From Leucoraja erinacea (Eukaryota), in the NCBI RefSeq assembly GCF_028641065.1, contig NC_073383.1, positions 20,088,001 to 20,152,000 on the forward strand: a stretch of DNA of 64,000 nucleotides. Direction: 5' to 3'. The stretch's first letter is position 1; every line of letters begins with the position of its first letter. The notes under the pieces are model-generated. The model saw only the letters and a program-made list of their open reading frames with translations. It ran no database searches and was not told where the DNA came from. Shown here one piece after another: positions 28,301 to 55,300 of the stretch. The translations under genes were made by a program, and so were the position numbers.

Positions 28301-31300
28301 AATCAAACATTTTCTATTGATTTTTTTAGAGCCCCCAAGCTTTACAGATAAAATAATGTCCCAGGATGTTGTACTTGGTTCTTCAGTACAATTTAGAGGT
28401 GTTGTAAAAGGAAGCACACCGCTATCTACAAAATGGTTCAAAGGGGACAGAGAATTGATGCATAGTATGGCATATTCTATTTGGAATGAAGGCTCGTTAT
28501 ATTTCCTAGAATTGCCTTCATCTAAAATATCGGATGCGGGTAATTATACCTGCCAAGTTAGCAACGATATTGGTACAGATGCCTGTTCTGCAAACCTGCT
28601 TGTTAAAGGTGCGCAATTATGGCTTTGTTCTCCTGTTTTGATATATGCAAAACAGTTTTCTTGCTTTACCATCTTGAATGTTTAAATTTCTTTTTCTTGA
28701 CGGTTACTGTACTTAAGTGGCAGTATATTGCACTGCTGTCCATTGTGAGAATGAGGTATGGTAGTCTTAAAGCATTGAAATTTTTAGGCTTGTTATTCTA
28801 TATCATGCCATACTACAATTTTGTTCTGTTAACTAAGGCAAAGCACCATACCAATGTTGGGGAATACTATATAACCATATAACCATATAACAATTACAGC
28901 ACGGAAACAGGCCATCTCGGCCCTACAAGTCCATGCCAAACAAATTTTTTTTCCCCTTAGTCCCACCTGCCTGCACTCGTACCATAACCCTTCATTCCCT
29001 TCTCATCCATATGCCTATCCAATTTATTTTTAAATGATACTAATGAACCTGCCTCCACCACTTCCACTGGGAGCTCATTCCACACCGCCACCTCTCTCTG
29101 CGTAAAGAAGTTCCCCCTCATATTACCCCTAAACTTCTGTCCCTTAATTCTGAAGTCATGTCCTCTTGTTTGAATCTTCCCTATTCTCAAAGGGAAAAGC
29201 TTGTCCACATCAACTCTGTCTATCCCTCTCATCATTTTAAAGACCTCTATCAGGTCCCCCCCTTAACCTTCTGTGCTCCAGAGAATAAAGACCTAACTTA
29301 TTCAACCTATCTCTGTAACTTAGTTGTTGAAACCCAGGCAACATTCTAGTAAATCTAATATATAATGTTTAATTTTTGAAAAACTGGCAAATTAGACAGT
29401 GTCCAACATAGAACATAGAAAATAGGCACAGGAGGAGGCCACTTGGCCCTTCGAGCCAGCACCGCCATTCATTGTGATCATGGCTGATCGTCCTCAATAA
29501 CCCGTGCCTGCCTTCTCCCCATATCCCTTGACTCCACTAGCCCCTAAAGCTCTATCTAACTCTCTCTTAAATTGATCTCTTAAATCCATCCAGTGATTTG
29601 GCCTCCACTGCCCGCTGTGGCAAGGAATTCCATAAATTCACAACTCTCTGGGTGAAAAAGTTTTTTCTCATCTCAGTCTTAAATGACCTCCCCTTTATTC
29701 GAAGACTGTGGCCCCTGGATCTGTCCACTGTAATTTAATTGTACCATCCAATCCTAAAGTGACAATGATGACAATTTTGAAGAAATTTTACTAGACTGCC
29801 CCACTCCAACTGTTGAACCATAGGAAGCATTTTATCGGGATGCATCACAGCATGGTTTGGGAACAGCTCCATCTAAGACCCCATAAAATTGCAGCGAATT
29901 ATGGACGCAGCCTAGACCATCACATAAACCAACCTCCCTTCTATTAACTCCATTTATACCCCACTCTGCCTCAGCAAAGCCAGCAGCATAATCAGTTGCA
30001 CACCCTGGCCACTCTTTCTTCTCCCCACTCACATCAGGCAAAAGGTATAGAAGTGTGAAAACACACAGCTCCAGATTCAGGGACAGTTTCTACCCAGCAG
30101 TTATCAGGCAACTGAATTATCCTGCCACAACCAGAGAGCAGTGCTGAACTACTATCTACCTCTTTGATGACCCTCGGACTATCCTTAATCAGACTTTGCT
30201 AGCCTTACCTTGCACTGAACGTTATTCCGTTATGTATCTATACACTGTAAATGGATCGATTGTATCACGTATTGTCTTTCTGCTGACTGGTTAGCACACA
30301 ACAAAAGCTTTTCACCTCGGTATACCTGACCATAAACTAAACATTGAAGGAATCTTAATAGCATTTAAAAACAAAATACTGTTTGCTCTAGTTATGATAT
30401 TAAAACATGATTTTTATTAAATTAGTAACTTGAGCAGTCAATCTTGTTTAAACAGTTATTTATAATTGTTTCATTGGTTTCAAGTACTATTGAATATCCT
30501 TAATATGTTTTTTTTAATTTATAATATTTTGATTTCTAGAACCCCCTAGTTTCATTAAAAAACTGAATTCTTCAACAATAATGAAGGAAGGTGCCTCAGC
30601 ACGTTTTGAGTGTATTGTAACTGGAACACCTGATATCAAAGTTTCCTGGTATAAAAATGGTTCTGAAATTATTGCCAGTGCCAAATATACAACATCATTT
30701 GATGGTTCTGTGGCAATTCTTGAGATTATTGACATGATTCTAGAGGACAGTGCCCATTACGTGTGTGAAATACGAAATGAAGCCGGCAGTGACAACTGCA
30801 GCACCGAAGTTGAAATTAAAGGTCTGTAATAATGTCCAAATTCCTAACAAATGACATCAGCTACTTTTTTGAGCAAGGATAATGTTAGTTTCTGTGTTTT
30901 TTTAATTTTGATTTCTTTATCATGATTTTAGAACCTCCCAGTTTTAGAAGGAAACTTCAGTCTGCTGAGGTTATAAGAAACAATGGTGTTATTCTTGAAT
31001 GTGAATTGGCTGGTACAGGTCCCTTTGACGTAATGTGGTACAAGGACAATAAAAGAATTCCACCAAGTGAAAAATACAAGATGATCACAAAGAATGTTTT
31101 AAGTAGCCTTCATATTTTGAAGGTGGATGTCTCACTTGTTGGCGAATATAAATGCACAGCAAGCAATGATGTGGGAAGCTGTTCCTGCAGTTGTATTGTC
31201 AGTTTAAAAGGTTAGTTACATGGTGGTAGTGGTGTACCTTTTGTCATTTTTAATGAATGTATTTCAAGTAAAAAGGAATACACCAGTTTTAAGTAAAATG

Positions 31301-34300: not shown

Positions 34301-37300
34301 CATTACAAGCTACTATTAAAGGTTCAGAACCAATTGAAGTAACATGGTTCAAAGAAAAGAAAGAAGTTAAAAATGATGAGGACATAACTATCAGCCATGA
34401 ACAAAACATTGTGGCTTTGCATATTTCAAAAATGGAGCCAGCACATGCAGGAATGTATGTTTGCCAAATCAAAAATGATGCTGGAATGCAAGAGTGCTCT
34501 GCTGCATTATCATTCTTGGGTCAGTAGTTTACTGTCAATATATTTGATGTTCTTAGAATTTAGCTAATTCCTGAGAGCATTATCCTATATGCCAAAATAT
34601 AAGAATACTTTGTAAAAATTAATTTACTTCTTTCAGAACCTGCCATAATAGTGGAAAAAACAGAATCTGTCAGTGTAACTTCAGGAGATCCAGTGACTTT
34701 GGAATGCATTGTTAAAGGCACACCTGAGCTCAAAGTGAAATGGTTGAAAGAAGGACAAGAATTGGTATCTGGCAGAAAATACAAGATTAGTTTTCTTAAT
34801 GGAATTGCCATCCTAAAACTTATGTCCACAGAGAAGTTAGATGGTGGTGAATATACTTTTGAAGTCCAGAATAATGTTGGTAGCAGCAGCTGCAAATTAT
34901 CAATCAGCGTTCTAGGTTTGGCCTCCATTTTTTCTCTTTGTACACTTTCCTTAATTGCTTATTAAATCATTTTTTAAAATTGTGATCTAATCATGCTTAA
35001 TTGTTGTGATTTAAACAGACCGTATAATTCCACCAACATTTATTAGAAAATTAAAGAAAGTGGATGGTATCTTGGCTTCTCCCCTCCAAATGGAATGCAA
35101 AGTGTCTGGATCACCACCAATTGCAATGTCTTGGTTCAAAGATGGACATGAGATTGTCCATGGAGAAAAATATAATCTGATATTCGGTGAAAATAAGTGT
35201 GATTTGAAAATAAATACTTTGGAATTATCAGATGCTGGCAATTATGTATGTAAAGCAACCAATGCTGCAGGCAGCGATGAATGCAGTGGTACTTTAACTG
35301 TAAAAGGTTAGTTTAATTCTTAATGCAATTCAAATTGTTCATATTCTTTGTGTATGAGTCATGCTTTATAATTTCTAGCGTTCAGAATAATTTTTGTTTG
35401 ATATGCATACACATTGGAGTATACTTATTATAAATGCTGCATGGTGCTGAACCTAAACAGAGTAAAAAGGTCTCGGAGACATTCTAATTGATGAAAAGCT
35501 ATCAACTGCAAATGATGGAAATCTGAAATAAACAGAAACTGATTGAAATACATGTATCTTTGGAGAGAGAAATTATGTTTATGTTTCGGATTGACGATTT
35601 TTCATTAAATTCAGGCAGGTCAGAAATCAAAGATGTTTTAAGTTGTAGAAAAGAGAGGTGAATGGAGAGAAGTGAATTCTGTCACGGAGACCAAAAGATT
35701 CCAAAATGCACAGGTCAAGAGTGTTTTATTGTCATATGTCCCAACAGACCAATGACATTCTTACTTTCAGCTTTCAGCAGCACAGCAGAATATGTAAACA
35801 TAGTACTTTGTAAACATAATAATAGTGCAATTATAGTGCAACAAGACAAAACCAATGCCCCCAAGTCTATGTAGTTCAGAGTTTATTTGGAGGTTGTAGT
35901 GTTTAATAGCCTGCTGTTCCTGAACCTGGATGTTAAAGTTTTCAAGGTGCTATATCTTCTTTCCGATGGTAGGAGTGAAATAAGTGTGTGGCCAGGGTGA
36001 TGTGGGTTTCTGATGATGCTGGATGCTTTTTTAAGGCAACAACTCCTGTATACCCTTTGAAGTTATTTAACTAATTACGGTTAATTTGTCTGGAGGGGCT
36101 GTATTGGTATTGGTATTATTAGTTTATTATTGTCATGTGTACCAATGTATAGTGAAAAGCTTTGCTTGAATTCTGTCCAGTCAAATCATATTATACACGA
36201 GTACTATCTATGATACATGAAAGCAATGTAGCACAAAGAGAAAAATACTAAGATGCAGAATATAGTGTTAAAGCATTTTAGCCTTACAGTTACTGAGAAA
36301 ATGCAGATTAAAAAAATGCAAGGTCCGTAATGAAGATCAGCCTAACACCCAAGCTCATTAGAGGACAATTCAGTAATCTGATAACACTGAGGATGAAGCT
36401 GTACCAGAATCTTGTGGTACATGCTTTCAAGCGTTTGTATCTTCTGCCCACTGGGAGGGACTGACTCCGGTGAAAATGGTCCTTGATTATGTTAACTGCT
36501 TTCAGAAAGCAGCGTAAAGGAATCGAGGAGGGAGAGGCAAGTTTGTATGATGGGTTGGGCTATATCCACACCTCTCTGCAATTTCTAGCTCTCTCAGAGT
36601 TGTTTCCAAACCAAACTCTGATGGCTCCCAAAAGGATGATTTCACCTGTACATCTGTAGGTTGTTAAGAGTCATTGGGGATATGCCAAATTTTCTTCTTC
36701 TTCTATGGAATTAGAGGCGTTAGTGTGCTTCCTTTGCCGCAACATCATGGTAAATTGTTGGTGATAATAATAGCAAGGAACTTGATGCTCTTTGCTATCT
36801 CACTTTAGCACCATTGATACTGATAGTCAAATGGCCTGATTATGCTAATCTTCTAGGCTTAGACCTAAAGAAAAAATTAATGTAATTTTGTTTATAGCAA
36901 AATGCTTGGATTTTAAATTCCCCGTTCATTTTAAACATCTTATATCTTATTTTGTTTCCACCTCTTTAGAACCAGCCTCATTTGTGAGCAAACCTGATCC
37001 TCAGGAAGTGTTACCTGGGTCAACAGTGAAATTTACATGTGTTGTTACTGGGACAGCACCATTGAAAGTAAAATGGTTTAGAGGGAACACTGAACTAGTA
37101 ACAGGAAGAAAATGTCGAATTTCTTTCAGTGACTCAATATCAATACTTGAGCTACTAAATGTAGAACCTTCCCAAAGCGAAGATTACATTTGCCGAGTCA
37201 GGAACGAAGCTGGTGAAGATTCTTGTACAACAAAATTGTTTGTGAAAGGTTTGTGAATAGAGTTTTAAAGAAGAACGAGACCAAGTGGGACCTGTTGGGT

Positions 37301-40300
37301 CCCGTTCCCCCAACACAATATTCCACCACTCACCTGTTCCCCCAACGCAACCCGTTCCACCAACGCAATATCCTACCGCTCACCCGCCCCCAACTGCACA
37401 GGTGCGACAGATTCCCACTCATTCCCCAGCACTCCCTCCCCCGGGTCCTGTTCCCCAATGCAATATTCCACCACTCACCCGTTCCCCCAATGCATTTGCT
37501 CCACCAACGCAATATTCCACCACTCACCAATACCCCCCCCCATCTGCGCAGGTGCGGCTCATTTCACCTCATCCCCAGCACTCCCCTTCCTCTTCTTCAC
37601 CCTCCCTCTTTTTAAATTTTAAAACATTTACTTTTTACTTTTAAAAATACAATTCTCCTTCCCCTGCCCCTGCCCATTACAAAGTTACAAATGACAGGAC
37701 TCAGTGTCCTGTCAATTGTACCATTTTAACGGGATAAAATGTGAATAACTTGTAAAGTAAAACATGAATCTGAACAAATCTTTGGTACACAACACCACAG
37801 GGCAATGGTGAGTATGGTGGTCCAAAATTTGTAGTGCTATCGTGTACTGTTTTGCCATAATTTCAGGATCACACACACATACACACACACACACACACAC
37901 ACTCACAGACATAATAACAAACAAGATGAGAGTTTTAGTAATATATATTACTAGACCAAGTGGTACCAGTTGCGTCCCGTTCCCCCAACACAATATTCCA
38001 CCACTCATCCGTTCCCCCAACACAACCCATTCCACCAACACAATATTCCATCACTCACCCATAGCCCCCAACTGTGCAGGTGCGGCTCATTTCCCCTCAT
38101 CCCCAGCACTTCCTCCCCCTCCTCTTCACCCTCCCTCTTTTTAAGTTTTAAAAGATTGACTAAAATCCAATTCAACTACCCCTGCCCCTGCCCCTGCCCG
38201 TTACAATGTTACAAATGACAGGACTCAGTGTCCTGTCATTTGTAACATTGCAAAGGCAGGGGCAGATAAAGTGCAATTGAATTTTTTTGTGAAAAGTTAA
38301 ATTTTTAAAGTTTAAAATGTGAATAACTTGTAAAATATATCTGAACAAAACTTTGATATACCATACCACAGGACGCTGGTGAATAAGGTCATCCAAATAT
38401 TGTAGCGCTATCATGTACAGTTTTGGCGTAATTTCAGGATCACACTCATCACAGCCAAACAGACAGACAAACAGACAAAATCACAGACATAATAACAAAC
38501 AAGAGGAGAGTTTTAATAATGTATAGATGTGGGTAACATCATTTTGCTGGAGTTACAAGTATATATTTTTGCAACTGTTTTCCTCTCTATCTTCACCAGA
38601 ACCAGCAGTATTCCAGAAAAAATTGAAAGATTCTATTGTGATACTGGGAAAATCAGTTTGTCTTGACTGCATATACTCTGGTACCCCAGAAATCAAAGTA
38701 CATTGGAAGAAGAATGGGTTAGATATAGTCCAGTCTGAAAAGCATATTATAACTACCACTGAAACCTCTTGTATTTTGGAGATTCTCAACACCATCAGAG
38801 ACGATGGTGCAACATATATGTGTGAAGTAGAAAATGATGCTGGAACTGACACTTGTCATGCTGAAGTGAACATATTGGGTTTGTTTCCTTTCAATTTCTT
38901 TTAGCTGCAGATTAAAAATCAAAGCTTTTCTCGTTTCTTTAAAAAAATATTTGATGTACATTTTCTTCAATCACTGATACGTTTTTTTTCTTCTTAGAAC
39001 CACCAACATTTGTCCAAAATTTAGAGCCTCTGGAAATAACAGTTGGTGATTCAGGATCTTTTCAATGCACACTTAGTGGAACACCTGAAATTAAAGTAGC
39101 TTGGTACAAAGGAGACACAAAACTGAGAGCCACCCCAAATTGCAAAATGGAATTTGTAAACAATATTGCAAAATTGGAATTGAAGAAAGTAACAATGAAT
39201 GACTGTGGAGAATTTATGTGCAAAGCTGAAAACAAAATAGGTGTATGTTCATCAAAGGCGGTGTTCACTGTACAAGGTGATGTTCTTTGGTAGATTAATT
39301 GGTATTTGTGGAGAATGTATATATTTATGCTGGAGCTCTTTGAACTTTTAAAGCTTTATAATCTCATTATATTAATTCATTCCATTCCGGTTTATTTTAC
39401 AGAACGCAAAACGGCACCTTCTTTTGTAAGAAAACTTAAGAATATGGAAGTAACTCTTGGTCTTCCAATAACATTCGAGTGTTGCACGACTGGTTCAGCT
39501 CCTATTGAAACTTCTTGGTTTAAGGATGGTATAAAACTGCTCCCTGGAGAAAACTTAAATATATCTTTCATGGAGAATGTAGCATCTCTTCAAATTCTTA
39601 AAACCGAGTTGGATCATGCTGGTGAATACAGTTGCAAAGCATCTAACATAATAGGAGATGCTTCATGCAGTTCCAGATTAATTCTTAAAGGTAAAATGGG
39701 TTAAATAATTACTAATTTGACTTCTTCAATGTTATAATATTGACATTTTAGTATCTGCTTTCATCTAACATTGCTAGATGTTAGTACAGTGTACCTTGCT
39801 GTTTATACTTTTACAATCAAATATAATTATATTTTTGTTATGTCTTTAGAGCCTAGAGTTGCCCCTGTATTTGACAAAAGATTACAACCAGTGGAAGTTA
39901 CAGCTGGGCAAAGTGTGGATCTTGAATGCCACTTAACTGGCTCTCCACCAGTTAAAGTTACTTGGTTGAAGGATGGCAAAGAGATGCGATCAGGTGGCAA
40001 TTACAAGATATCTTATGTTGAAAATACACCTCACCTAATTATTCTGAAAGCAGACAAGGGAGATGCTTGTCAATACATTTGTGAGGCCAGCAATGATATT
40101 GGAAAGGATTCATGCGAAACTGACGTGACTGTGAAAGGTATCAATCAATAACAAATACAACTCTTTATATATACTCTGAGAGCCCAGACTTAACTAATTT
40201 CAAAGGGTAATGTTTTTTTCACATCTTCAATATGATTCGCACTGGTTACTTGTTCAAGAAAGATTGCAGATGCTGGAAAAATCGAAGGTAGACAAAAATG

Positions 40301-43300
40301 CTGGAGAAACTCAGTGGGTGAGGCAGCATCTATGGAGCTAAGGAATAGCTATTCCTTTGCTCCATAGATGCTGCCTCACCCGCTGAATTTCTCCAGCATT
40401 TTTGTCTACCTTACTGGTTACTTGGTCAATTTTTATTATGTTGTCCATGTGCAATTTTTATTTTGCTTTTCCTGAATACATTTGAAGACACTTAAAAAAT
40501 AATCAAACTTTGTAAAATAGTCAAAGGTAGTGGAATTATTTTAATGCTGATCTTCAAATATGTATTTTACTGTCATATCAGTCTGAAAAATTAATTTCCT
40601 GAGGCATATTATTAGTTTTCAACAACCAAAACAATATGAGGTTTACAATTAGGAGAACAAAATAGCCTGTTCCCCCATTAAAGAAGAACAAAGTTTAACT
40701 TTTCTATTGACTTCAATTTCCTGCACCTTCCCATAACTCTTCATTTCAATGGACCCAATAAGCATTGACCTTGGTCTTGAATATATTCAGTTTTCAAGCA
40801 ATTACATTTGTCCTGTGAAAGAATAATATCACAAAATAATTTAGAAATATATAGATAGATCATATTATGTTAATCTGCCCACTTGCCTGAATCAGCCCTT
40901 AACAGGGTCTAATGTAGAGAGCCTACCTTAATGGTTCTCTACCTATTGAGTAGGAAGCATTCTATGGAACAGTAAGGATGCTCTAAGGAACTCTTGCCAA
41001 CTGACAAAATTGGGAGTGGTGCTTTACTGGCTATATTAGTTGTAATTGACCTTTTTCATTTAAAAAGTGTCTGATATTCAGAGACTGTTAAAATAAACCT
41101 ACTGGAATAGGTGATTATTTTAAAAAAAGGGATGAACAAAGTCATCAAGCAAACATAAAACTACCTTAAAACAATTAAAAACAAATTTAATGGTAATGCA
41201 TGCCTCTTTACTGCCTTAATTTTTTTCTCTACAATCCCTATTAAAAGTATTAGGATATCAGAATTTTCACAAAATTAGATCTTGTGCCTGATCTAAGAAC
41301 CGACTTCCCGACCATAAATGTGTTGAAAACCCATGGTAAAGTTAACTATTCATAAGTCCACATCAATAAGTCCACAGATGTTGACAATGCACCTCCATTT
41401 CAAAGACTAAAGGGCCTGTCCCACTTGGGCGTCATTTGTGCGCCATTTATGCTACATCATTTACGTGCCACGATGCATGGCGCGTGGCGTGCATGTTGCG
41501 TGGTGAGGTGTGGTGGCATAGGCGCGGTGATGCGCGGTAGCGCGCGGCGCCCCAGGATTTGGGGATTCTCAAAATCCTCGCCCGCCACCTGCGTGATGCG
41601 CAAATGACGCCCAAGTGGGACAGGCCCTTAATTGGAAACTGTCCCAGTTAGCAAAAGTTAGCATGCTTCAGCAAGCTGGTTGTTTAAGATATTCATAGTG
41701 CTACTCCTGTCTGTTACAGATCGTAAAGTTCCACCAAGCTTTACTAAAAAACCTATTGAAACAATACAGGAAACAGAAGGGAAATTTATAAAAATTGAAG
41801 CTCGTGTTTCTGGTTCACAACCATTGTCTATAACTTGGTTCAAAGATGAGCAAGAGATCTTGCAATCTGAAAATTATGAACTATCTTTTAAAAATAATAT
41901 AGTAATATTGAACATCAAGAATGCACAGCATTCTGATTCTGGTGTTTATACATGTGAAGCATCCAATGAAACAGGCACTGCAAAGTTTAATGTGACTGTA
42001 CTGATCCAAGGTTAGTAATGGCTACTTGTGATTACAAAGGTCGGGGAAGCTTATACCTGTAAATTTCATTGTTTGTTTGTAAAATAATTGCACTATTTTC
42101 AAAATCTTGATATTATTCAGTTATAAGAAGCATGCAATGAGTATTATTCTAATTTCCAGTTGCCTGCTGTCAGTTGTTTTTACCCATATCCATTTAGTTT
42201 TTGTCTTTCAACTAACAATAGAGAATCTATACAATCAGTCTTCATTATCAGTCTGACGAAGGGTCTCGACCCAAAACGTCACTCATTCCTTCTCTCCAGA
42301 GATGCTGCCAGTTTACCCCCAGCTTTTTGTGTCTATCTTCATTATTAGTGTATTTGCTCTCCATCTAATCATAATGTTGTCCCCTATCTTAATTATTTTT
42401 GGACAAATATCAGTGTGCATATATATATATTGAGGCACAATCAATGTATAAATATAGTGATAAAACCAGGCCACTTTGACCAAGTAGCTCCCTGCTATGC
42501 TCTGTTCTACTATGATGCAGTGTTCGCTCACACAGTTGCATCATGTGACTTCAAATTTTGCAAGTATAATCGCATTCAATTGAAGTAACTAATATCATTG
42601 GCTTATAGGTATTTAAACAAACTGATGCGAGTGAATGTTTTTAGAACATTATAGGGTAAATGTATGTTTATTTGGAGAGTTATATTAAAGAGAGTGCCTT
42701 AGTGATGTTCACATTTTTTGTTATACTTGGGAAGTCCCTGCAACCTATCACTTGTGAATAATGAAGACAGTGCAGAAGTTCAGTCAGAGATGCTGAGACA
42801 GGTAAATGCAGTGCATTGTGCACACTGACGGGCAGGAACTGTCTGAGATAATATTAAGCTTTGCAAGTGATTTGTCATGGGTGGAGGTTACAACCGGGCA
42901 AAGTGTGGACCTTGAATGCCATTTAATTGGCTCTCCTCCAATTAAAGTTACTTGGCTGAAAGATGACAAAGAGATTTTCTTATGAGCCTATGCTTTATGA
43001 ATTTCACAGGAGAATGTTTCTTTTGCAATCTCAAAATTATGCTAACAAATCATGGTCAGTTTTTATTTTGCATGTAGAATTCTTATTTTGGCTTTCCTGG
43101 TAACAGCTTAAAAAACAAATCTATGAAAAGTAATATAACAAAATAGAGGTAATATTTTAATATCATTAATTCTTTATTTTGTTAACGTATCAGTTTCTAT
43201 TTATTTCCTGATGTGTATGCTTAATTTTTAAGAACCAAGAATGAAAGCAAGATGAGGGCATACAGTCTGCTCCATCAGTTAATAAGAAAAAGGCTGAACT

Positions 43301-46300
43301 TATGTATCTCATCCAATTTCCTGTCCAATTTCTTAGTCCTCTTTGTTTTGAAAGTGCCCAGTGCAGGTTATCCCTACATTACGAGGGGAGGTGGGAGTTG
43401 TTGCCATATTGGTATTTTGGTATTTTCCAGTATGTGATGCTGCAAAACTTTGGGTGGTGATTAGTGAATTCAGTAAGGACAAATTTTCACAACATGGCAA
43501 GAGCTGCTTGTAATTTGTACGCCTTAGCCGTGAATGTATACAGTGAGTGGGCGAGTGATCACATTTCAGTCATAAAGTATAATATCACTGAAAAAATAAA
43601 AAATATCTAAGGATCCGATTATCTAATCTGGTTCCTACCTAATTTGCTGTTGCTTTAACCAGGGTCCAAAACAAAGATCCTATCCTAATGATATTCCACA
43701 CTGTGGAGTCCAGCAGCATTCGTATTCGATTGTTCAAAAAAAGAGGCCCTTTTCTGGAAACGTGCTATCAGCTGGCAACAGGTTTTACCAACTGAAGTGC
43801 TTGTCAATTATTTTATTAGTTTTTAATTGGCAGACATTTAAAGGTAGATTAAAAACTGTTAAATTGAAGTAAATAATGAATTATTTAAAAAAAACATTTT
43901 AATCGTAAAATAATTAAAAAATATAAATGTTACCTAAAACACATCAAAGCACTCAAAAGAACTAAAGGAAATACAAAATTAAAAATGACAATTTTAGCTA
44001 CAAACCTTTCGCTCTGCAATTCTCGTTAAAATGAACATTGTGTCAGATCTTGCAGCAAGTCTGAACCTTGCCCATGATCCAAGAAACAACTTCCCCAACA
44101 TAATGTCAAATTCTGCTTCTTGGGTTGAGCATTACAGTGAACGAACAAGAAGTTCATGTTAATACTCTGGAAACTGAAAAGTATAATTTCAATGATTGAC
44201 TACCAATTGTTCAAGCGAAAACATCAGTAAAAGTCAGTTTACCTTAGGCCGGTTAGTTCTATATGATATTCACAATGCTACTTCTTTCTGTTGCAGATTA
44301 TTTAATTCCACCAAACTTTACCAAAAAACCTCATCAAACAATACAGGAATCAGAAGGACAATCCATAAAAATTGAAGCCCGTGTTTCAGGTTCACAACCA
44401 TTATCTATAACCTGGTTCAAAGATGAGCAAGAAATTTTGCAAACTGAAAATTACATATTATTATTTAAAAATAATGTAGTACAATTGAACATTAAGAAAG
44501 CACAGCTTGCTGACTGTGGTGTCTATACATGTGAAGCATCCAATGAAGCAGGCACTGCAGAAGTTAATGTGTCTGTTCTGATTCAAGGTTAGTGAAAGGA
44601 TTAGTTATTGTAAGGGTTACAAATGCTTTTGTTTCTTCAGTCATATTTATTGGTATTTGTGTTTAAGTATTGTTAGAAATATATTCCTTTTAAGATACAA
44701 AACCCAAAAGGCAAAGTGATTAATCCATGGTTCACAAGAGAAATTGAAGACATTATCAAATAAAATGAAGAGCCTTATATACATGACAGAAATTTCAGTA
44801 AGCTTGAAAATTGTGAGCATTTTAGAACTTAGTAAAGCTAGGTTCAGTAAAGAAATTGATCAAGAAAGACAACATGGATTTGTGAGTAGACTGTAAAGAA
44901 ACATAAAAATGGATTCTAAAGACATTGAAGGTTAGGTTAAAAAAAATATGGCAAAATGTGGGCCTTTACAGACTGAGGGAGCAGAAATTTATATTGGGAA
45001 ATAAGGAAATGGAAGAGACACTTTGCACCTGTCTTCATAAAAGAAGATACACAACCTATAATAGAGTGTCCAGCAAAAATGCAGGACTGAAAGCACAGTA
45101 TTACAGTATTGGACAAGAAAAAGTACTAAAAGAGTCAGTGAACTTGAAAGATGATAAATACAAAGGAACGGATGATCTACATCTTTTTTGAGATTTGAAG
45201 GAAGTGGATTTAGAAGCAAGGATTCTGAAGAAGGGTCTCGACCCAAAACATCACCCATTCCTTCTCTCCAGAGATACTGCCTAGTCCTGCTGAGTTACTG
45301 CAGCAACCTTAGAAGCAGGGATAGTTCTGCTTATCATTTTTTACAGCTGAATTCTGGGCCTAGTGCTATGGATTGGAGAGTAGCAAATATGGCATAACTA
45401 TGTAAGAAAGGAGAGTGAGAGGAACAGGGTACTACTGTTAGCCTAACATCGGTGGTAGAAAAAGTACCGGAAACGACATTGAAAGATTTAATAACAGAAC
45501 ACCTTGAGAAGGATAATCAATAAGGATTTATGAAAGGAAAATTATATTTGACTAATTCACTGGACTTCTTTAAGGATGTGACCAGTAGAATAGATAAAGA
45601 CAAACGAGTGGATTAGATTTATGCTTTCATTAAGGCAGTTGGTCAATAAGATCAGAGCACATGGATTTTAGAGTAATATGATGACATGGATTGAGAATTA
45701 ATTATCGGACAGAAAGCAAGGGATGTGAATCAACAGTTCTTTCTCAGGTTGACAGGCTTCAATTAGGTAGTAGCACTATCCAGTAATAACACTACAACTG
45801 ATGCTTGGGCACCAGCTATTCACAATCTATATCAGCAATTTGGGTGAGGGGCCAAACACTGAATTCCAAAATTTGTTGATGATAGTAAACTAGGGGAGAT
45901 TGTGTTCATTGGACTATGTCATATGGGGAAGCTATGTACGAGCTGAAAGAGCGGGCATGAATGTTGCAAGTGGAATATAATGTGGAAAGGTGTGAGGTCA
46001 TCCATTGTGGCGAACGTAGCAGATAAGTAGAGTATTTGTTAAATTGAGAGAGATTGAGTGGTATTAATGATCAATGGGACCTGTGTGTGCTTGTACAAAG
46101 CCACTGAAGACCAACATGCAAGAGTAGCATGTGATGGGGTTAGCCTTCACAATGGGAGAATTGCATCACAGGAGTAAGGAACTCTTATTGCAATTGTATA
46201 GTTGGTGAAATCGCACCTGAAGAATTGGTTACAGTTTTGATCTCCTTACTCAACAAAGGTGTACTTGCCAAAGAGAGAATGAAAGAAAAATTCACTAAAC

Positions 46301-49300
46301 TGATTCCAAGAATTCCGCTTTCATCGAATGAAGAGAGATGGGATTATGTCCTGTAGAATTTAAAAGAATGAAAAGTGATGTTTCAAGAATTTTTTAAAAA
46401 TGATTTGAAATGAAGACTGTTTTCCCTGATTGAGGAGTCTAAACCACAATGTTTCGGCCTCAAATAAGACATTTCAGCTGAGATGAGGAAATATTATTCT
46501 AGTGTGGTGAACCTTTGAAATCCTCCAGCCCAGAGGACTGTGAAGTCTCAATTGTTATGTTCATTCAAAACATCGCTGAATGCTGGAGCAGGTGCAAGGG
46601 ACTGAATTGCCTATTCCTGCTCCTGTTAATTGTGTTTTCCATTATTCATTATACTGGTGTACAATGAATTTTTATATCCTTGCCTATTGTAAACACCTCT
46701 TGTCAACATTCCATTTAAATAGTATTTTTCAACCAGTGATTTACTACAGAATATAAGTAGAAATTATTTTTATTTCAGGATTGGGCATAACTAGGAAGGC
46801 CAATAATTATTGTCCATCCCTAATGGCCCTTGATAAGGTGGTGGTTATTCACCTTCTTGAACATGCCATAGATTTCCAGAAAAGGCAGCTGATAATGCCA
46901 TTGGGGATTCCATAAATTAAACTCAGTGATTATGACAGCAATATCTTTCAAGTCAAAGTATTGTGAGATTTGGACAGGTGCCATGCTCTTTCTTGAACTC
47001 TACTCGAGTTCATGGCTTTAGCAGATACTGTCTGATTTGCCTTGGCAAGTGATTGCAGTGTATTTTGTAGATGACACACACTGCAGTCACAGTGCCGTGA
47101 TGTTGTTTGGAATTTAGAAGGATGAGAGGGAATCTTATAGAAACATATTTCCTGCATCTAGCCTTAAAGGACTGGACAGGATAGATGTAGGAAAAATGTT
47201 CCTGATGTTATAAAAGGCAGTGGAGGCCAATTCACTGGATGTTTTCAAGAGAGAGTTAGATTTAGCTTTTAGGGCTAAAGGCATCAAGGGATATGGGGGA
47301 AAAGCAGGGACGGGATACCGATTTTAGATGATCAACCTTATATTGAATGGCGGCTCGAAGGGCCGAATGGCCTACTCCTGCACCTATTTTCTATGTTTCT
47401 ATGGAATTAATGTTTAAATTGGCTTATCGTGGTTGGCTGCATTGTACAAGTGGATGTCAAGCTTCTTACCTGTTGCTTTCATAGTACGCGACCGTCAGTG
47501 TGAAGATCTCAAAATCTTTGTACATGAATCACTGAGCATTAGGATGGTTGAATGGTCTTACTCCATGACTATTTTTATTTTACAGAGCATAAAACTCCAC
47601 CTTCTTTCTTAAGAGAAATGGAGAATATGGAAGTAACTCTTGATTTACCAGCCACATTTGAGTGTTGTATAGCTGGTTCAGCTCCAATTGAAACTTCTTG
47701 GTTTAAAGACGGTGTAAAATTGCTGCCTGGAACAAACTTAATTACATCTTTCATAGAGAATGAAGCAACTCTTAAAATTCTTAATACTGAGATGAATCAT
47801 GCTGGTGAATACACTTGCAAAGCTTCCAACATAGTTGGAGTTGCTTCATGTAGTTCGACACTAGCTCTCAAAGGTATGTAGGGTTAAATATTTATCAAGG
47901 CACCTATAATTAATGACCATTGATCTTAACTTTAATATTTGCTTTGATCTGTCATTGACAGACCTTATTGTAATTCACACTTTTGTAATAACTCTTACAA
48001 CTCTTTTCTATAATGTTTCCGGTGTATAGAGTTGCCCCTCTATGTTTGGTTAAATATATGCTTGTTCTGATTCTTTGCTTAATTAGCAGTTACCTTAATT
48101 TTCTGGTATTTACTCTTCAATATCTGCTTTCCACACTTATTGCTGTATGTTATTATTTTACTGTTTATACATTTACAATAGAATACAATTCTTGTTATTT
48201 TTTCAGAGTCTCGAGTTGCTCCTCTATTTGACAAAAAGCTAGAACCAGCGGAAGTTACAATTGGGAAAACTGTGGACCTTGAATGCCACTTAGTTGGCTC
48301 TTCCCCAATTAAAGTTACTTGGTCGAAAGATCGCAAAGAGATTCGATCGGGTGCCAATTACAACATAACTTATGTGGAAAATACAGCTCATTTGATAATT
48401 CTGAAAGCAGACAAGGGAGATGCTGGCCAATACATTTGTGAGGCCAGCAATGATCTTGGAAAGGATTCCTGCAAAACTCAAGTGACCGTGAAAGGTTATT
48501 GCTCAATAATAATTATACCTTACTGTCTAGTATATCTTATGAGAACAGGGTTTATTATTTATTAAAAAAATATTTCATTTTACATCTTTTTAATTTATTT
48601 TGGCCAGTTATTTAACCAGTTTTGTTATGTTTGTAAGTGGAATGCCAATGGGTTAAAAACGCTAATCTATGAGATATAACATTAAAAGTAAAGAGATTTT
48701 CTTTATATTAATTATTCTTTACTTTAAAAAGACACCTTCTTCAACCATTCTTTCTTGAGGTACAATTATAATGTTTAAGGATGAAAAAATAATGGCAGTA
48801 CTAAACCAAATAACATGCTCAACAAGAACAAGGCTGAAATTCTGATACCAATACTTTTCTCATGGAAGATTAATACCTCTGATGATATGAGATCAATAAT
48901 CTATGGATCATATTGTGCATGAGACACTGACAGTAGTCTTTCTGCGTCTTACTAACACTCATTGCAGAGGCTCCAATTTGTTCGTCTTCATTCTGGAGTC
49001 CTATAATATTTCATCAGGTGGCAGAGGAAAAATGCCCTGCCTCTAAAATTCCTGGCAGGTTACAAAGCTGGAGATGAAATACATTGATACTATTTTTAAA
49101 TGCAAGTAATTATAAAGATGACAAAATTATTTTTAACTTAATCAAAAATAAAGATGTTAACTAAACACACAAAAGTATTTAGAAATAATTATAAACATAA
49201 AAATAAAGCAGATACAAAATTAAAAAGTAACACATTTCCTCCTAAAATTTTTACCTAACAATCTGCATTAAGTCTATACAGTTCTGCAGTTGGCTTGATC

Positions 49301-52300
49301 TTTTGTTGAATCCAAGAAGCAATTTCCCCAACTTAAATGACAGTAAGATGGAACATTAGTTGAACTGCCATTTCATTGGCGGCAGATCCAATTGAAACTA
49401 CTGTACTGACAAAAGTTAGCATGATCCAGGCCCATTAGAATTGTCTGATATTTATAATGCTACTCTTTTCTCCAACAGATCGTAAAATTCCACCAAGCTT
49501 TACTAAAAAACCTCTTGAAACAATACAGGATTCAGAAGGAAAATCTATAAAAATTGAAGCTCGTGCTTCAGGTTCACAACCATTATCTGTAACCTGGTTC
49601 AAAGATGAGCAAGAGATCTTGGAAACTGGAAATTATGAATTATCCTTTAAAAATAATCTTGTCATTTTGAACATTAAGAAAGCACAGATTGTTGATTCTG
49701 GTATCTACATATGTGAAGTGGCGAATGATGCAGGCACAGCAAAGTTTAATGTGTCCGTACTAATCAAAGGTCAGTGATGGATATTCATCATTATATGGAA
49801 TGGGGAAGTTTACACTGGCAAATTCTGTTTTGTTGAATCGTTTTTTGTTTAGTCTTGATACCATTTATTATTCTAATGTCGAATGGACATTCTTAAATCT
49901 TTGCACGTTGTTAACTTTTCTTGTACAGATTTTTTGAAAGTCTGCCTTTTAATCAATAACGCTGTGGAAATTATATAGAAATTATATGTTGTTCATTTTT
50001 CAGAGTTTGTGTATTGGTAAGGCCAGCATTTATGGTGCATCCCCAATGTCACTTTTTAGGTTGTGGTGAGTAATGTTCTTGAGGAACTCTAGCTAGTCTC
50101 ATTCTGCCATTGACAGGGGCATCGTACTATGTCATCTACTTTTTGTTGTTGGCCACTTTTCATCATTTCCTGGATAGGTCATAGAAACATAGAAAATAGG
50201 TGCAGGAGGAGGTCATTCGGCCCTTCGAGCCAGCACCGCCATTTATTGTGATCGCAGCTGATCGTCCCCAATCAATAACCCGTGCCTGCCTTCTCCCCAT
50301 ATCCCTTGATTCCACTAGCCCCTAGGTCAGTAGTTGAAATTCTGTGTAGTGGATGAGTTCTAAAGGATAACATAAATGTATTGCCTGACAAAAATGCATA
50401 TATCCCTTGCATTATTGAAGGCCATTTATAATATTGAGCAAGTCTGCCGCTAAGCTGAAAAGAAAAATGGATTGTCTGGAAATGGCAAAATCTCAAGGGG
50501 AAGAGGGAATAAAAGTGATAATGAAATTTTAATGTATTAACTATTGACATTTATTTTGTTTTAGAACTGAAGAAACCACCTGTCTTTGATATTCCACTTA
50601 AACCAATGACAATAACAGAAGGAGAGTTATTGCAGCTAAAATGTCATGTTCATGGGTCGGAACCAATTAATGTCCAATGGTTCAAAGATAGGAAAGAAAT
50701 AAAACCATCTGAAAAACTGAACATGACTTTCATAGATGGCACAGCCACAGTTGAAATTAAAACAGTTGCCAAAACAGATAGTGGTGACTTCCTGTGTAAA
50801 GCCACAAATGAGGCTGGAACTGACAATTCCAAAGCCAAGCTAACAATCCAAGGTATGAATTAAATTGTTATTTGTTATGATGCGAGTGATGTATGGATGC
50901 CACAAATTTGTAAAATCATGGTTTGCTAAACATTCAACTTCTTGAACTTTTATGTATTAAGGCAAAATTGAAGTTGCCTTGAGATACAGTATCTTTATTG
51001 TATTGAAAGACAAAGGAAGATTCCTCGGTCATGTAGTTTTGATCTTGATGGATGAAACAACCAACAATCAATGATCATATTTATGAAATGAATTCAATTC
51101 ACAAATTGAATTCATAAACTAATTGTGCCACATGTCGTTCCTTGACTTGATGATTCTAAAGAGTAATCATATATAGTCTTTATGCCGACTGGTTAGCATG
51201 CAACAAAAAAGCTTTTCACTGTACCTCGGTACATGTGGCAATAAACTAAACTAAACCAGATGGTGTAACTGCATAGGCCAAGACCCCTTTGCTGTTTTGT
51301 GATACCTAATAAAAAAAGAACATTGCCTCGTGCTTATGAATTCATAAAGAACTATTATGACATTATTGCATTTTTTGACCTGATTTTTAATCACAATTTG
51401 TTTTTACTTGTTGTTAGATAGCCAATGTGGTTTATTACTGAGCTAATGCATTTTATATTCTGTGTCATAGAGAAGACAGATTTATATTTAATTGTAGCTC
51501 TGTTCATTACAAAGCTCAATATCATCGCTTCTATGTTTCAATACTTACTAAATGTTTTTCATATTGCAGCAGAAATCTTTTTTTAGTTGCAATACCGAAG
51601 AATTTTATGTTCTTTTTGTTTGCTAAGCATAAAACAAAACATAACTAATTCTTGTTATGAAATGTTGATGCATATAATTTTAAAGCATGAGATATATCAT
51701 ATAAGTAATTATTAACATGTTCACAGTAGTACAATTTCATGTTCAAGTGTAATTATTTTTTATATACCTTGATGAATTATTTGTATATCGATAACTGGTG
51801 GACACATATGTCCACTACACATATATATCAAAATAGATAAGAGCGCAATATTTTTGATTTGTAAAACATGGGGGTAGGTCTGCCCACCACCTTCTTACAA
51901 TTAATGTAATTACAATGTGTAGCTATTGTGTTGGTACAACCACAAAGACCCAATTGCCTTTCTGAATGGGAATTTATATGACTGCAAATGTAATTTTGCA
52001 TATAACCCAACATGTCCCAGCCATTGCCAAGTCGTAACAAATATATGGATGTGTGGCTGATTCCTTATTCTCATTAATTGAATCTTTCTCTATTGTTCCT
52101 GAATGGCTTTATCAATAATATCTATATTAATTAAATATTACAATTAGATCCACACCACGATAGAAAGATGGGGAAAGAAATACTTGAATTGTAACTATGT
52201 AGAGAAAATGCGTGAGTTTTATGCCAAACGATGTACTGATGTGAATTTGTAAAATTGCAATCTGTTGGGGATTCAAGAGTGGTACAATGATTATTTTAAA

Positions 52301-55300
52301 TATTAATTGCTAAAATCCAATAGGTAGTGTTTGGTTCAGAGGTTAAAGTGCACAACATCAGGAGCATTTTGAACGTACCCTCTTCCATTTTTATGGGAGA
52401 TAGGATAAAGGACAAGGAGGTGGCCCTAGAAATCATGGCTGCATTGGTGATCATTTTCCAATGTTCTCTCAACTTTGGATCAGTTCCTGTGGACTGGAGG
52501 GTATATCGATAACTGGTGGACACGTATGTCAATGTAACCGCACTGTTTAAGAAAGGAGGGATAGAGATCGGTCAAAGTGACAGGATCGGTCAAAGTCAGC
52601 ATGATTAATGAAGGGAAAACCATGCATCACTAATCTTGCGGAATTGTTTGAGGATGTAACAAGTATAATGGATAAGGGAAAGCCAGTGGATGTGGTGTAT
52701 CTGGACTTTCAAAAAGCCTTTGACAGAGTCCCACACTAGAGATTAGTGTGCAAAATTAGAGCACATGATATCGGGGTAGGGTATTGACATGGATTGATTG
52801 GCAGTCAGGAAGCAAACAGTAGGAATTAATGGGTCCTTTTCAGAATGGCAGGCAGTGACTAGTAGTGTGCCACAGGGCTCGGTGCTGGGACCCCAGTTAT
52901 TTACAACGATTTAGACGAGGGAATTAAATATGACATCTCCCAAGTTTGCGGATAACACAACGCTGGGTGGCAGTATGAGCTGCGATGAGGATGTTTTGAG
53001 GCTGAAGGGTGACTTGGGTAGGTTGGGTGAGTGGGCAGATGCATGGCAGATGCAGTATAATGTGGATAAATGTGACGTTATCCACTTTGGTGGCAGAACA
53101 GGAAGGCATATTATTATCTAAATGGTGTCAGATTAGGAAAAGGGGAGGTGGAACGAGATCTGGCTGTGCTTGTAAATCAGTCACTGAAAGTAAGCATGCA
53201 GGTACAGCAGGCAGTGAAGAAAGTTATTGGCCTTCATTGCGGGAGGATTTGAGTTTAAAAGCACGGAGGTCCTGTTATAGTTGAACAGGGCCCTGGTACG
53301 ACCGCACCAGGAGTATTGTGTGCAATTTTGATCTCCTAATTTGAGGAAAGACATTATTGATATTGAGGGAATGCAGCGTGGGTTCACCGGGTTAATTCTT
53401 GGGATGGCAAGCTGACATATGATGAAAGAATGGGTTGACTGGGCTTGTGTTCATTGGAATTTAGAAGGATGAGAGGATATCTTATAGAAACATATACAAT
53501 TCTTAAAGGATTGGACAAGCTAGATGCAGGAAAAATATTCCCGATGTTGGGTCAGGGGTCACAGTTTAAGAATAAGGGGTAGGCCATTTAGGACTGAGAT
53601 GAGGAAAAACTTCTTAACCCAGAGAGTTGTGAACCTGTGGAATTCTCTGCCACAGAAAACAGTGTGGGCCAATTCACTGGACGTTTTCAAGCGAGAGTTA
53701 GATTTAGCTCTTAGGGCTAAAGGAATCAAGGGATATGGGGAAAAAGCAGGAATGGGGTACTGATTTTAGATGATCAGCCATGATCATATTGAATGGTGGT
53801 GCTGACTTGAAGGGCTGAATAGCCTACTCCTGCACCTATGTTTCTATGTTCAGCACAAACATGGTGGGCCGAAGGGCCTATTCCCATGCTGTACTGTTCC
53901 ATGTTCCATGGTCTTTCATACAGGGCATGCATCAGAATAAATTAGCGATTTGCATTTCTAATATACAATATATGCAATATATCTTCATAAGCACAGTAAT
54001 AACTTTTTAAACTTTATATTTTAGTAACCTAATTCTACATCGCATGAAAAAATCCTGTCATCATTGCAAAGATAAATTAGCAATGAGGGCAAATGAACAA
54101 TCCATTCTTCCAAATTGTCCTTGCTTGTGGTTCATCTAGTCAATTAAAATTATATTGAACTGGTCTGTACTTTCAAATCTGAATTTTTGTCAAAGGTGCA
54201 ATGATGTCAGGTGAATTCAAAAATATTCAAAAAAGAGGTAATGATACAAAATTGAACGTGAATGGACAAAATAGGAATGGTCAACCTGTGAATATGATTT
54301 AGATGGACCATTGATTGAAAAGAAATGAGATGAAATATAAAGTCAAATGGCTTACCATTTCCACATAAAGAAAATCATAACATTATTCTAAATATGTTGC
54401 AAATATATTATCAACCCTGATTGTTGAATTGATGATCAGTATTTAGATCAGAGATGAATTAAACCATGAATTATAAGATGGAGATCTATATGCAAGTATT
54501 ACTTTTTATAATTATAGAAACATAGAAAATAGGTGCAGGAGTAGGCCATTCGGCCCTTCGAGCCTGCACCGCCATTCAATATGATCATGGCTGATCATCC
54601 AACTCAGTATCCTGTTCCTGCCTTCTCTCCATACCCCCTGATCCCCTTAGCCACAAGGGCCACATCTAACTCCCTCTTAAATATAGCCAATGAACTGTGG
54701 CCTCAACTACCCTCTGTGGCAGAGAGTTCTAGAGATTCACCACTCTGTGTGTGAAAAAAGTTCTTCTCATCTCGGTTTTAAAGGATTTCCCCCTTATCTT
54801 TAAGCTGTGACCCCTTGTCCTGGACTTCCCCAACATTGGGAACAATCTTCCTGCATCTAGCCTGTCCAACCCCTTAAGAATTTTGTAAGTTTCTATAAGA
54901 TCCCCCCTCAATCTTCTAAATTCTAGCGAGTACAAACCGAGTCTATCCAGTCTTTCTTCATCTGAAAGTCCTGACATCCCAGGAATCAGTCTGGTGAACC
55001 TTCTCTGTACTCCCTCTATGGCAAGAATGTCTTTCCTCAGATTAGGAGACCAAAACTGTACACAATACTCCAGGTGTGGTCTCACCAAGACCCTGTACAA
55101 TTGCAGTAGAACCTCCGTGGTTCTATGGTGGTATACAGAGGTTCATGCAATGTAAATCTAAACTGAGGAACTGACCTGATCACATACTTAAGTATAAGAA
55201 AACTCTCTGGAATATAAAGTTGTGCTCTTCCTCTCAGGGTATAGGTCAGGCAAAATCGACAAATTTACATTGGCATAGAAACTATTTTGTACCACAATCA

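What the first reader, a model, noticed from the sequence alone, without database searches (positions are those of the whole stretch)
39403..49769. Triplicated I76-I77-I78 unit with a half-dead middle copy
Seen: order is I76, I77, I78, [95-nt I77 relic at 42881], I78, I76, I77, I78, I79. Intron homology supports three units (40425-40500 vs 43054-43130; TC(C/T)AAGAA..ACTTCCC at about 41290, 44080 and 49310). From my recollection of human TTN, these domains are single-copy just before N2A. Inference: lineage-specific gain of four intact Ig domains next to the N2A signalling hub, with exon death visible in the middle unit, where I76 is lost, I77 is a fragment and I78 is still open.
Basis: partly seen in the sequence, partly recalled or inferred. 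Interest (0 to 1): 0.7.

Follow-up and report, generated by a model that had tools for sequence, protein, structure and literature searches.

The report
Tripled titin exons, middle copy cut
The gene for the muscle spring protein titin in this animal (likely a cartilaginous fish) carries a three-exon block in three copies; close relatives splice the middle copy into RNA, but this genome lacks most of two of its exons, likely through a very recent deletion or else an assembly error, which would put two 77%-identical domains side by side.

Summary
Eight open Ig exons and a 96-nt I77 relic lie as described, and the introns support three I76-I77-I78 units. [quoted passage not shown] The copies are old (dS 0.28-0.42) and under purifying selection (dN/dS 0.39, CI 0.25-0.57).

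The 'slow exon death' reading fails. A public protein (P0009) is the whole middle I77 exon, matching the relic 32/32 and the intron behind it 41/41. A spliced contig joins that exon to the middle I78. Three of three genomic runs leave the window at exactly 42880 with 376 more letters. So relatives have the middle unit intact (I76b inferred). This genome lacks two pieces: at least 417 nt, and 195 nt. No laid run shows either junction, so a recent deletion allele (about 0.6) and an assembly error (about 0.3) both remain.

If real, I78a and I78b become neighbours at 77% identity; the other 56 neighbour pairs reach at most 45%. This is a new unit of a known kind of titin expansion, not found in five paper searches. 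Interest is moderate.

The parts
38998..39276 (+). I75-equivalent exon (class H of the last 10-Ig super-repeat), single copy, 5' flank of the block
39403..39690 (+). I76a, Ig exon, unit a, intact
   Evidence: spliced to I77a in contigs of X1 and X4; identical to P0011
39850..40137 (+). I77a, Ig exon, unit a, intact
   Evidence: table 8; identical to P0008
41292..41309 (+). 18-nt intronic motif, 14 of 18 columns the same in all three I77-I78 introns (copies at 44078 and 49311); possible splicing element, untested
41720..42010 (+). I78a, Ig exon, unit a, intact
42880..42881 (+). Junction 1: relatives have at least 376 more letters here plus the first 41 nt of I77b; the gap likely also held I76b and its intron
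   Evidence: tables 7 and 8 (X11, X14, X16); (P0009); I76b inferred tables 2 and 3
42881..42976 (+). Island of I77b: 32 in-frame codons without acceptor or donor
   Evidence: the last 27 nt lie with 0 differences on a spliced contig of X1
42976..42978 (+). Junction 2: 65 codons' worth (195 nt: rest of I77b, its donor and about 44 nt of intron) present in P0009 and absent here, with one base in their place
   Evidence: loose ends before 42978 in X14 and X16
42978..44296 (+). Remainder of the I77b-I78b intron, homologous to the I77-I78 introns of units a and c
44297..44587 (+). I78b, Ig exon, unit b, open with intact splice sites; covered in 4 of 4 RNA-type runs, all of which differ from the window at 44379 (silent) and 44516 (window Cys, runs Ser, in the D-S-G-x-Y motif)
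47586..47873 (+). I76c, Ig exon, unit c, intact
48207..48494 (+). I77c, Ig exon, unit c, intact
49479..49769 (+). I78c, Ig exon, unit c, intact
50565..50852 (+). I79-equivalent exon, single copy, 3' flank; followed by I80 (to 55923) and UN2A (from about 56186)

Best explanation
This is an old tandem triplication of the titin exons I76-I77-I78, whose middle unit is spliced into RNA in close relatives and has lost two pieces in this genome, likely by a very recent deletion. Shown: three units with homologous introns; single copy in bony vertebrates; purifying selection on the copies; a whole I77b in a near-identical genome; spliced contigs running I77b-I78b-I76c-I77c-I78c-I79-I80; two gaps in the window that leave a 96-nt island. 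Inferred: two rounds of unequal crossing-over, with c splitting first and a and b later. Because every exon is phase 1-1, each round added three Ig domains in frame and lengthened the middle-Ig spring from 63 domains (whale-shark pattern) to 69. Copying three exons at a time kept like domains three apart. The deletion in this genome removed I76b and both splice sites of I77b, so I78a would splice straight to I78b in frame, giving 67 domains with one 77%-identical neighbour pair that is predicted to be prone to strand-swapped misfolding.
For: Units and identities. [quoted passage not shown] Tree: window I76a+c 95/89; I77a+b+c 97/97 with a+b 96/90; I78a+b+c 92/88 with a+b 87/76. dN/dS a vs c over 286 codons 0.39 (bootstrap 0.25-0.57); I78 pairs 0.35-0.41. 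P0009 holds the relic's 32 residues and the 41 read-through intron codons exactly, with 65 residues between them that the window lacks. X1 record: relic's last 27 nt with 0 differences, then 149 letters, then I78b, then I76c to I80. X11, X14 and X16 each run on 376 letters beyond 42880. For a real allele: two sharp junctions with an in-order island, no N in the window, flanks that are not paralog chimeras, and the missing pieces not found elsewhere in the assembly. Neighbour identity: 74/96 for I78a-I78b; the next highest of 57 pairs is 45%, median 31%.
Against: 0 of the 4 runs laid on the junctions bridge either one as the window does. X11, the closest DNA holder, shows two alleles just upstream (depth 12.9 and 10) and only the undeleted continuation (depth 20.8). 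No reads of the assembled animal were seen. I76b was never seen as a sequence: it rests on an X1 contig of depth 5.08 that lies on I78a and on the first 100 nt of I76a, and a protein search found no I76b ORF. The order a+b versus c is well supported only for I77 and the intron; I78 distances are nearly equal (dS 0.33-0.38). No shark or ray protein was retrieved, so the date rests on the paper's domain counts. The runs' kinds are guesses by the tool, and all are contigs. Misfolding was not tested.
Confidence: 0.58

Rival explanations
1. The triplication is real and fully intact in this species too; the missing I76b and the I77 relic are an assembly or polishing error, and the true gene has nine intact exons here.
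For: 0 of 4 laid runs show either junction; 3 of 3 genomic runs diverge at exactly 42880 and 2 of 3 at 42978. P0009 equals the window over 41 intron codons, so its source may be this very species. The relic shows no decay. Paralogous exons at 82-86% identity can draw mis-mapped reads during polishing (own knowledge).
Against: The junction flanks are unique intron sequence, and the island is the true b sequence (27/27 to X1, 23/27 to a and to c), not a collapse onto a paralog. No displaced copy lies elsewhere in the assembly. Only 7 of 17 listed runs were laid, few individuals, so a rare allele would be missed.
Confidence: 0.32
2. One reading: the middle unit has been decaying for a long time, fixed in the lineage, with I76b lost, I77b a relic and I78b on its way out.
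For: I78b has the longest branch among the I78 copies (12 nonsynonymous and 9 synonymous changes by parsimony, against 5/6 and 10/6; 0.19). The window alone has Cys for Ser in the D-S-G-x-Y motif of I78b.
Against: Whole I77b in P0009 and in spliced RNA; relic in frame with no stop and identical to P0009; I78b covered in 4 of 4 RNA-type runs at a depth like its neighbours; dN/dS of I78b pairs 0.39-0.41 with intervals below 1. The branch differences are too small to mean anything, and 9 codons were ambiguous and left out.
Confidence: 0.05
3. The copies serve as alternatives (mutually exclusive or tissue-specific units) rather than as a longer spring.
For: Tandem exon copies often become alternatives (PMC9741552 and PMC9013439, search listing only). 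An 18-nt intronic motif is kept upstream of all three I78 copies. The joint table hid 282 rows, so skipping joins cannot be excluded.
Against: One X1 contig holds I77b, I78b, I76c, I77c, I78c, I79 and I80 in a row, and X7 joins I78b to I76c. All exons are phase 1-1, so joint inclusion keeps the frame. Depths of X1 contigs over unit a (11.5) and over units b and c (10.3) are alike, though contig depth is a poor measure.
Confidence: 0.05

Closest known systems
Titin (connectin) middle-Ig super-repeat expansions: 6-Ig repeats in elephant shark (six) and whale shark (eight), 10-Ig triplication in mammals (PMC12241362; abstract, results, discussion and methods read, parts 1-3 of 5)
   Same: Multi-exon tandem duplication of one-exon-one-domain, phase 1-1 Ig exons that lengthens the I-band spring. 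This genome has 3 + eight 6-Ig + one 10-Ig repeat upstream, the whale-shark pattern.
   Different: The unit is three domains, not six or ten. It crosses the end of the last 10-Ig repeat (classes I and J plus I78), a part the paper finds single in all four species. In elephant shark heart i28-i69 are spliced out, so the matching domains (e74-e76) stay in the heart isoform, unlike the 6-Ig repeats.
Triplicated PEVK exon block of human TTN (as described in PMC12241362 discussion; PMC6469411 seen as search listing only)
   Same: Three tandem copies of a block of in-frame titin exons, lineage-specific.
   Different: That block is PEVK, nine exons, and 1-3 million years old per the paper. This one is folded Ig domains with dS about 0.3-0.4 and introns diverged to 47-59% identity.
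Strand-swapped misfolding of like neighbours in titin, I27-I27 versus I27-I28 (PMC4660218; abstract and passages read)
   Same: The window's haplotype would place two close paralogous Ig domains next to each other.
   Different: Those were engineered identical tandems; natural neighbours at 24% gave no stable misfold. I78a-I78b would be a natural pair at 77%, above the roughly 70% threshold cited in PMC12241362. Misfolding was not tested here.

Membership tests
Titin middle-Ig segment (I76-I79 before N2A) | I-set Ig domains most like titin I-band domains | tested here: met
   Best PDB hits of the I79 exon are titin entries 3B43, 2RIK and 2RJM; homologues are named titin
Titin middle-Ig segment (I76-I79 before N2A) | Position between the last 10-Ig super-repeat and I80-UN2A | tested here: met
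   collinear with tortoise P0004, UN2A 78% identical
Lineage-specific tandem multi-exon duplication | Copies group together to the exclusion of orthologues, and introns are homologous | tested here: met
   (supports 95/89, 97/97, 92/88; the last is below the tool's star threshold)
Lineage-specific tandem multi-exon duplication | Single copy in outgroups, including other cartilaginous fishes | tested here: inconclusive
   Met for tortoise, frog and a teleost. For elephant shark and whale shark taken from PMC12241362, not re-tested; no shark protein was retrieved
Functional (expressed) exon duplicates | Spliced into mRNA and under purifying selection | tested here: met
   Exon-to-exon contigs in X1, X2, X4 and X7; dN/dS 0.39. 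The runs are of relatives or unknown conspecifics; tissue unknown
6-Ig or 10-Ig super-repeat of titin | Unit of classes A-F or A-J | tested here: not met
   The unit is I, J and I78; it works like a super-repeat expansion but is neither of these
Decayed pseudo-exon | Stops, frameshifts or neutral divergence, shared across the lineage | tested here: not met
   Relic has no stop, is identical to P0009, and is whole in relatives
Real deletion allele | Reads or contigs that bridge the junctions | tested here: inconclusive
   0 of 4 runs bridge them; the assembled animal's own reads were not seen
Mutually exclusive tandem exons | Only one copy per transcript | tested here: not met
   I78b and I78c on one spliced contig of X1; a contig is not a single molecule
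Misfolding-prone tandem (like neighbours) | Long-lived strand-swapped state on refolding | not testable with these tools
   Only the identity (74/96) was measured

The most novel reading that the evidence does not exclude
A three-domain titin block was triplicated in one cartilaginous-fish lineage in the part of the spring that the heart keeps, nearly doubling the cardiac middle-Ig segment. A natural in-frame deletion allele now segregates that breaks the rule of unlike neighbours by joining two 77%-identical Ig domains. This would be a wild test of whether misfolding between like neighbours is what forces titin to grow by multi-domain blocks.
Probability: 0.3. Interest if true: 0.6.

Novelty: new variant of a known kind. 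Interest (0 to 1): 0.36.

Why it matters
Titin's spring length sets passive muscle stiffness, and it is known to grow by 6-Ig and 10-Ig blocks. This adds a third unit size, at a site reported as single-copy in four vertebrates. By the elephant-shark splicing pattern the site is kept in the heart isoform, so the gain would soften the cardiac spring as well (inferred; tissue not tested). If the deletion is real, it gives a natural neighbour pair at 77% identity for testing the misfolding explanation of block-wise growth. If it is an assembly error, the gene model here is two exons short and should be corrected. It also warns that a 'dying exon' seen in one assembly may be whole in the species.

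Tried and rejected
No listed holder was on record as RNA. The kinds are the tool's guesses; I relied on exon-to-exon joins. Of 17 listed runs I laid 7 (X1, X2, X4, X7, X11, X14, X16). Laying 18 kb at once flooded the joint table with repeat reads (282 rows hidden), so I78a-to-I78b or other skipping joins could not be looked for. X11 has no listed contig over 42978-44780 apart from two short repeat pieces, and no genomic contig was listed on the relic; a filter drops some records, so these holes were not used. A search with an I76a+I76c profile found only the window's own I76a (1 of 13 candidates), so there is no direct I76b sequence. The search with I78a for longer proteins (7 of 41 candidates) and the representative search (150 listed) gave no cartilaginous-fish titin. 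No AG/GT pair within 180 nt upstream and 400 nt in length would make the relic an open in-frame exon. No homology was found between the I75-I76a or I76-I77 introns and 42011-42880, so no trace of I76b remains in the window. A chimeric origin of unit b (5' from a, 3' from c) was rejected because I78b-I78c is the least alike pair (241/291). A role in N2A signalling has no support: I80-I83 are single-copy here. Earlier scan findings: none returned. Not in print as far as five paper searches show (open-licence library only). The one supplement of PMC12241362 was not read and might list further species. No structure or complex prediction was run.
Full report
Observation. The stretch is part of a titin gene. 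The I79 exon's best solved relatives are titin I-band tandems. The exons behind it encode I80, UN2A and I81-I83 (these names are recalled; UN2A is 78% identical to tortoise P0004). Counting back from I80, the exons at 39403-50852 are I76a, I77a, I78a, I78b, I76c, I77c, I78c and I79. All are open, AG/GT-bounded and phase 1-1. A 96-nt piece of an I77 exon lies at 42881-42976. Copies are 82-86% identical in DNA and 73-77% in protein. The three I77-I78 introns align far above shuffled controls, a-b best. The intron behind I78b (46644-46860) matches that behind I78c (49863-50082), so the unit reaches at least about 310 nt past the I78 donor. Searches of the assembly found no other copy.

Lineage. 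Tortoise P0004 runs I75-I76-I77-I78-I79-UN2A with one of each. Xenopus P0006 has one each of I75-I78, and Albula P0001 one I76 and one I77 before it ends in I78. [quoted passage not shown] With 50 kb of upstream DNA, this genome shows three domains, eight 6-Ig repeats and one 10-Ig repeat. That is the whale-shark count, so the animal is likely an elasmobranch, and the triplication likely arose after its split from the whale-shark line. In a tree of 24 domains the window's copies group by class and apart from bony-vertebrate orthologues, and I77a and I77b are sisters (96/90). I retrieved no shark protein myself.

Selection. Nei-Gojobori dN/dS is 0.39 (bootstrap 0.25-0.57) for units a and c over 286 codons, and 0.35-0.41 for the three I78 pairs; dS is 0.28-0.42. 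The copies are old and constrained. I78b has the most changes by parsimony (12 nonsynonymous, 9 synonymous; 9 codons ambiguous and left out), which is not distinguishable from the others.

The middle unit is whole in relatives. Seventeen runs were listed; I laid seven. In one search (X1, X2, X4, X7; three organism labels, three studies) I78b is covered in 4 of 4. One X1 contig joins I78b-I76c-I77c-I78c-I79-I80, and one X7 contig joins I78b-I76c. In one search the same X1 contig begins with the relic's last 27 nt (0 differences; I77a and I77c match 23 of 27), then has 149 letters absent from the window at that place, then I78b. The genomic runs X11, X14 and X16 follow the window to 42880 and each go on for 376 other letters; X14 and X16 have 96 and 88 other letters before 42978. 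The public ORF P0009 (Logan, two contigs) is a whole 95-residue I77 exon read into its intron. It holds the relic's 32 residues and the window's next 41 intron codons exactly, with 65 residues between them, so the second gap is 195 nt. The first gap is at least 376 + 41 nt. I76b is inferred, not seen. An X1 contig of depth 5.08 lies on I78a and on the first 100 nt of I76a with its own letter at 39476 (tables 2 and 3; the contig itself is not displayed), and I76c is only 80/102 like I76a there. Neither the 30 letters behind 42880 nor a whole I77b was found elsewhere in the assembly.

Real or artefact. None of the four runs laid on the junctions bridges either one. X11 shows two alleles upstream and only the undeleted continuation. 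X11's alleles differ from the window by 3 and 5 letters in 127, so it may or may not be the same species. For a real allele: sharp junctions in unique sequence, an in-order island of true b sequence, and no N. The window also differs from all four RNA-type runs at two letters in I78b, one turning D-S-G into D-C-G; one change proves nothing. I put a recent deletion at about 0.6 and an assembly error at about 0.3.

How it would work. Each exon encodes one I-set domain in phase 1-1, so whole-unit duplication adds three domains in frame. The intact haplotype would have 69 middle-Ig domains against 63 in whale shark; the window's would have 67. In elephant shark ventricle i28-i69 are spliced out, which leaves the equivalents of I76-I78 in the heart isoform. 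The block would therefore lengthen the cardiac spring too; this is inferred and untested here. In the window the relic has no usable splice sites, so I78a would join I78b. They share 74 of 96 residues, while the other 56 of 57 neighbour pairs among the window's 58 exons reach at most 45%, median 31%. With I77b in place, I78b's neighbour shares 35 residues. PMC4660218 (abstract and passages) reports long-lived strand-swapped misfolds for identical titin neighbours and none for neighbours at 24%. PMC12241362 cites about 70% as the risk level and offers this as the reason titin grows in blocks. The intact triplication obeys that rule; the window's form would break it. N2A proper is I80-I83 (PMC8553726, passages) and is untouched.

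Verdict. The triplication is real, old, spliced in relatives and was not found in five paper searches. It is a new variant of a known kind of titin expansion. The 'half-dead copy' is not slow decay but a fresh loss or an assembly error, seen only in this genome. Interest 0.36.

Noticed in passing
window 13086-21080 vs 21701-28608: A younger duplication of two 6-Ig repeats together (a 12-exon unit), with introns still alignable at 76-81% identity. The total of eight 6-Ig repeats equals the whale-shark count; whether it arose independently was not tested.
   Followed up: partly
window 41292-41309, 44078-44095, 49311-49328: An 18-nt intronic motif has 14 of 18 columns the same in all three units against a background of 0.34 (P per window 1.7e-4, 49 non-overlapping windows, chosen after the fact). 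It lies about 170-220 nt before each I78 acceptor once a 220-nt insertion in unit a is discounted. Possible splicing element.
   Followed up: partly
window 41410-41629: A GC-rich insertion of about 220 nt with 32-nt terminal inverted repeats (31 of 32), like a miniature DNA transposon, in the I77a-I78a intron only.
   Followed up: no
window 40279-40413: Two short repeat fragments in inverted orientation, back to back, in the I77a-I78a intron; the same repeat lies at 42250-42340 and 45224-45305.
   Followed up: no
window 37275-38525: A local tandem duplication of intronic DNA (units of about 570-675 nt, 74-89% identical) between the I73- and I74-equivalent exons.
   Followed up: no
window 44516: The window has Cys where all four RNA-type runs have Ser in the D-S-G-x-Y motif of I78b; either a private allele or a consensus error.
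   Followed up: partly
window 44800-46600 and 52390-53850: Decayed LINE-like (reverse transcriptase-type; class recalled) insertions in the I78b-I76c and I79-I80 introns, 58% alike over 1.1 kb; whether they helped the unequal crossing-over was not tested.
   Followed up: no
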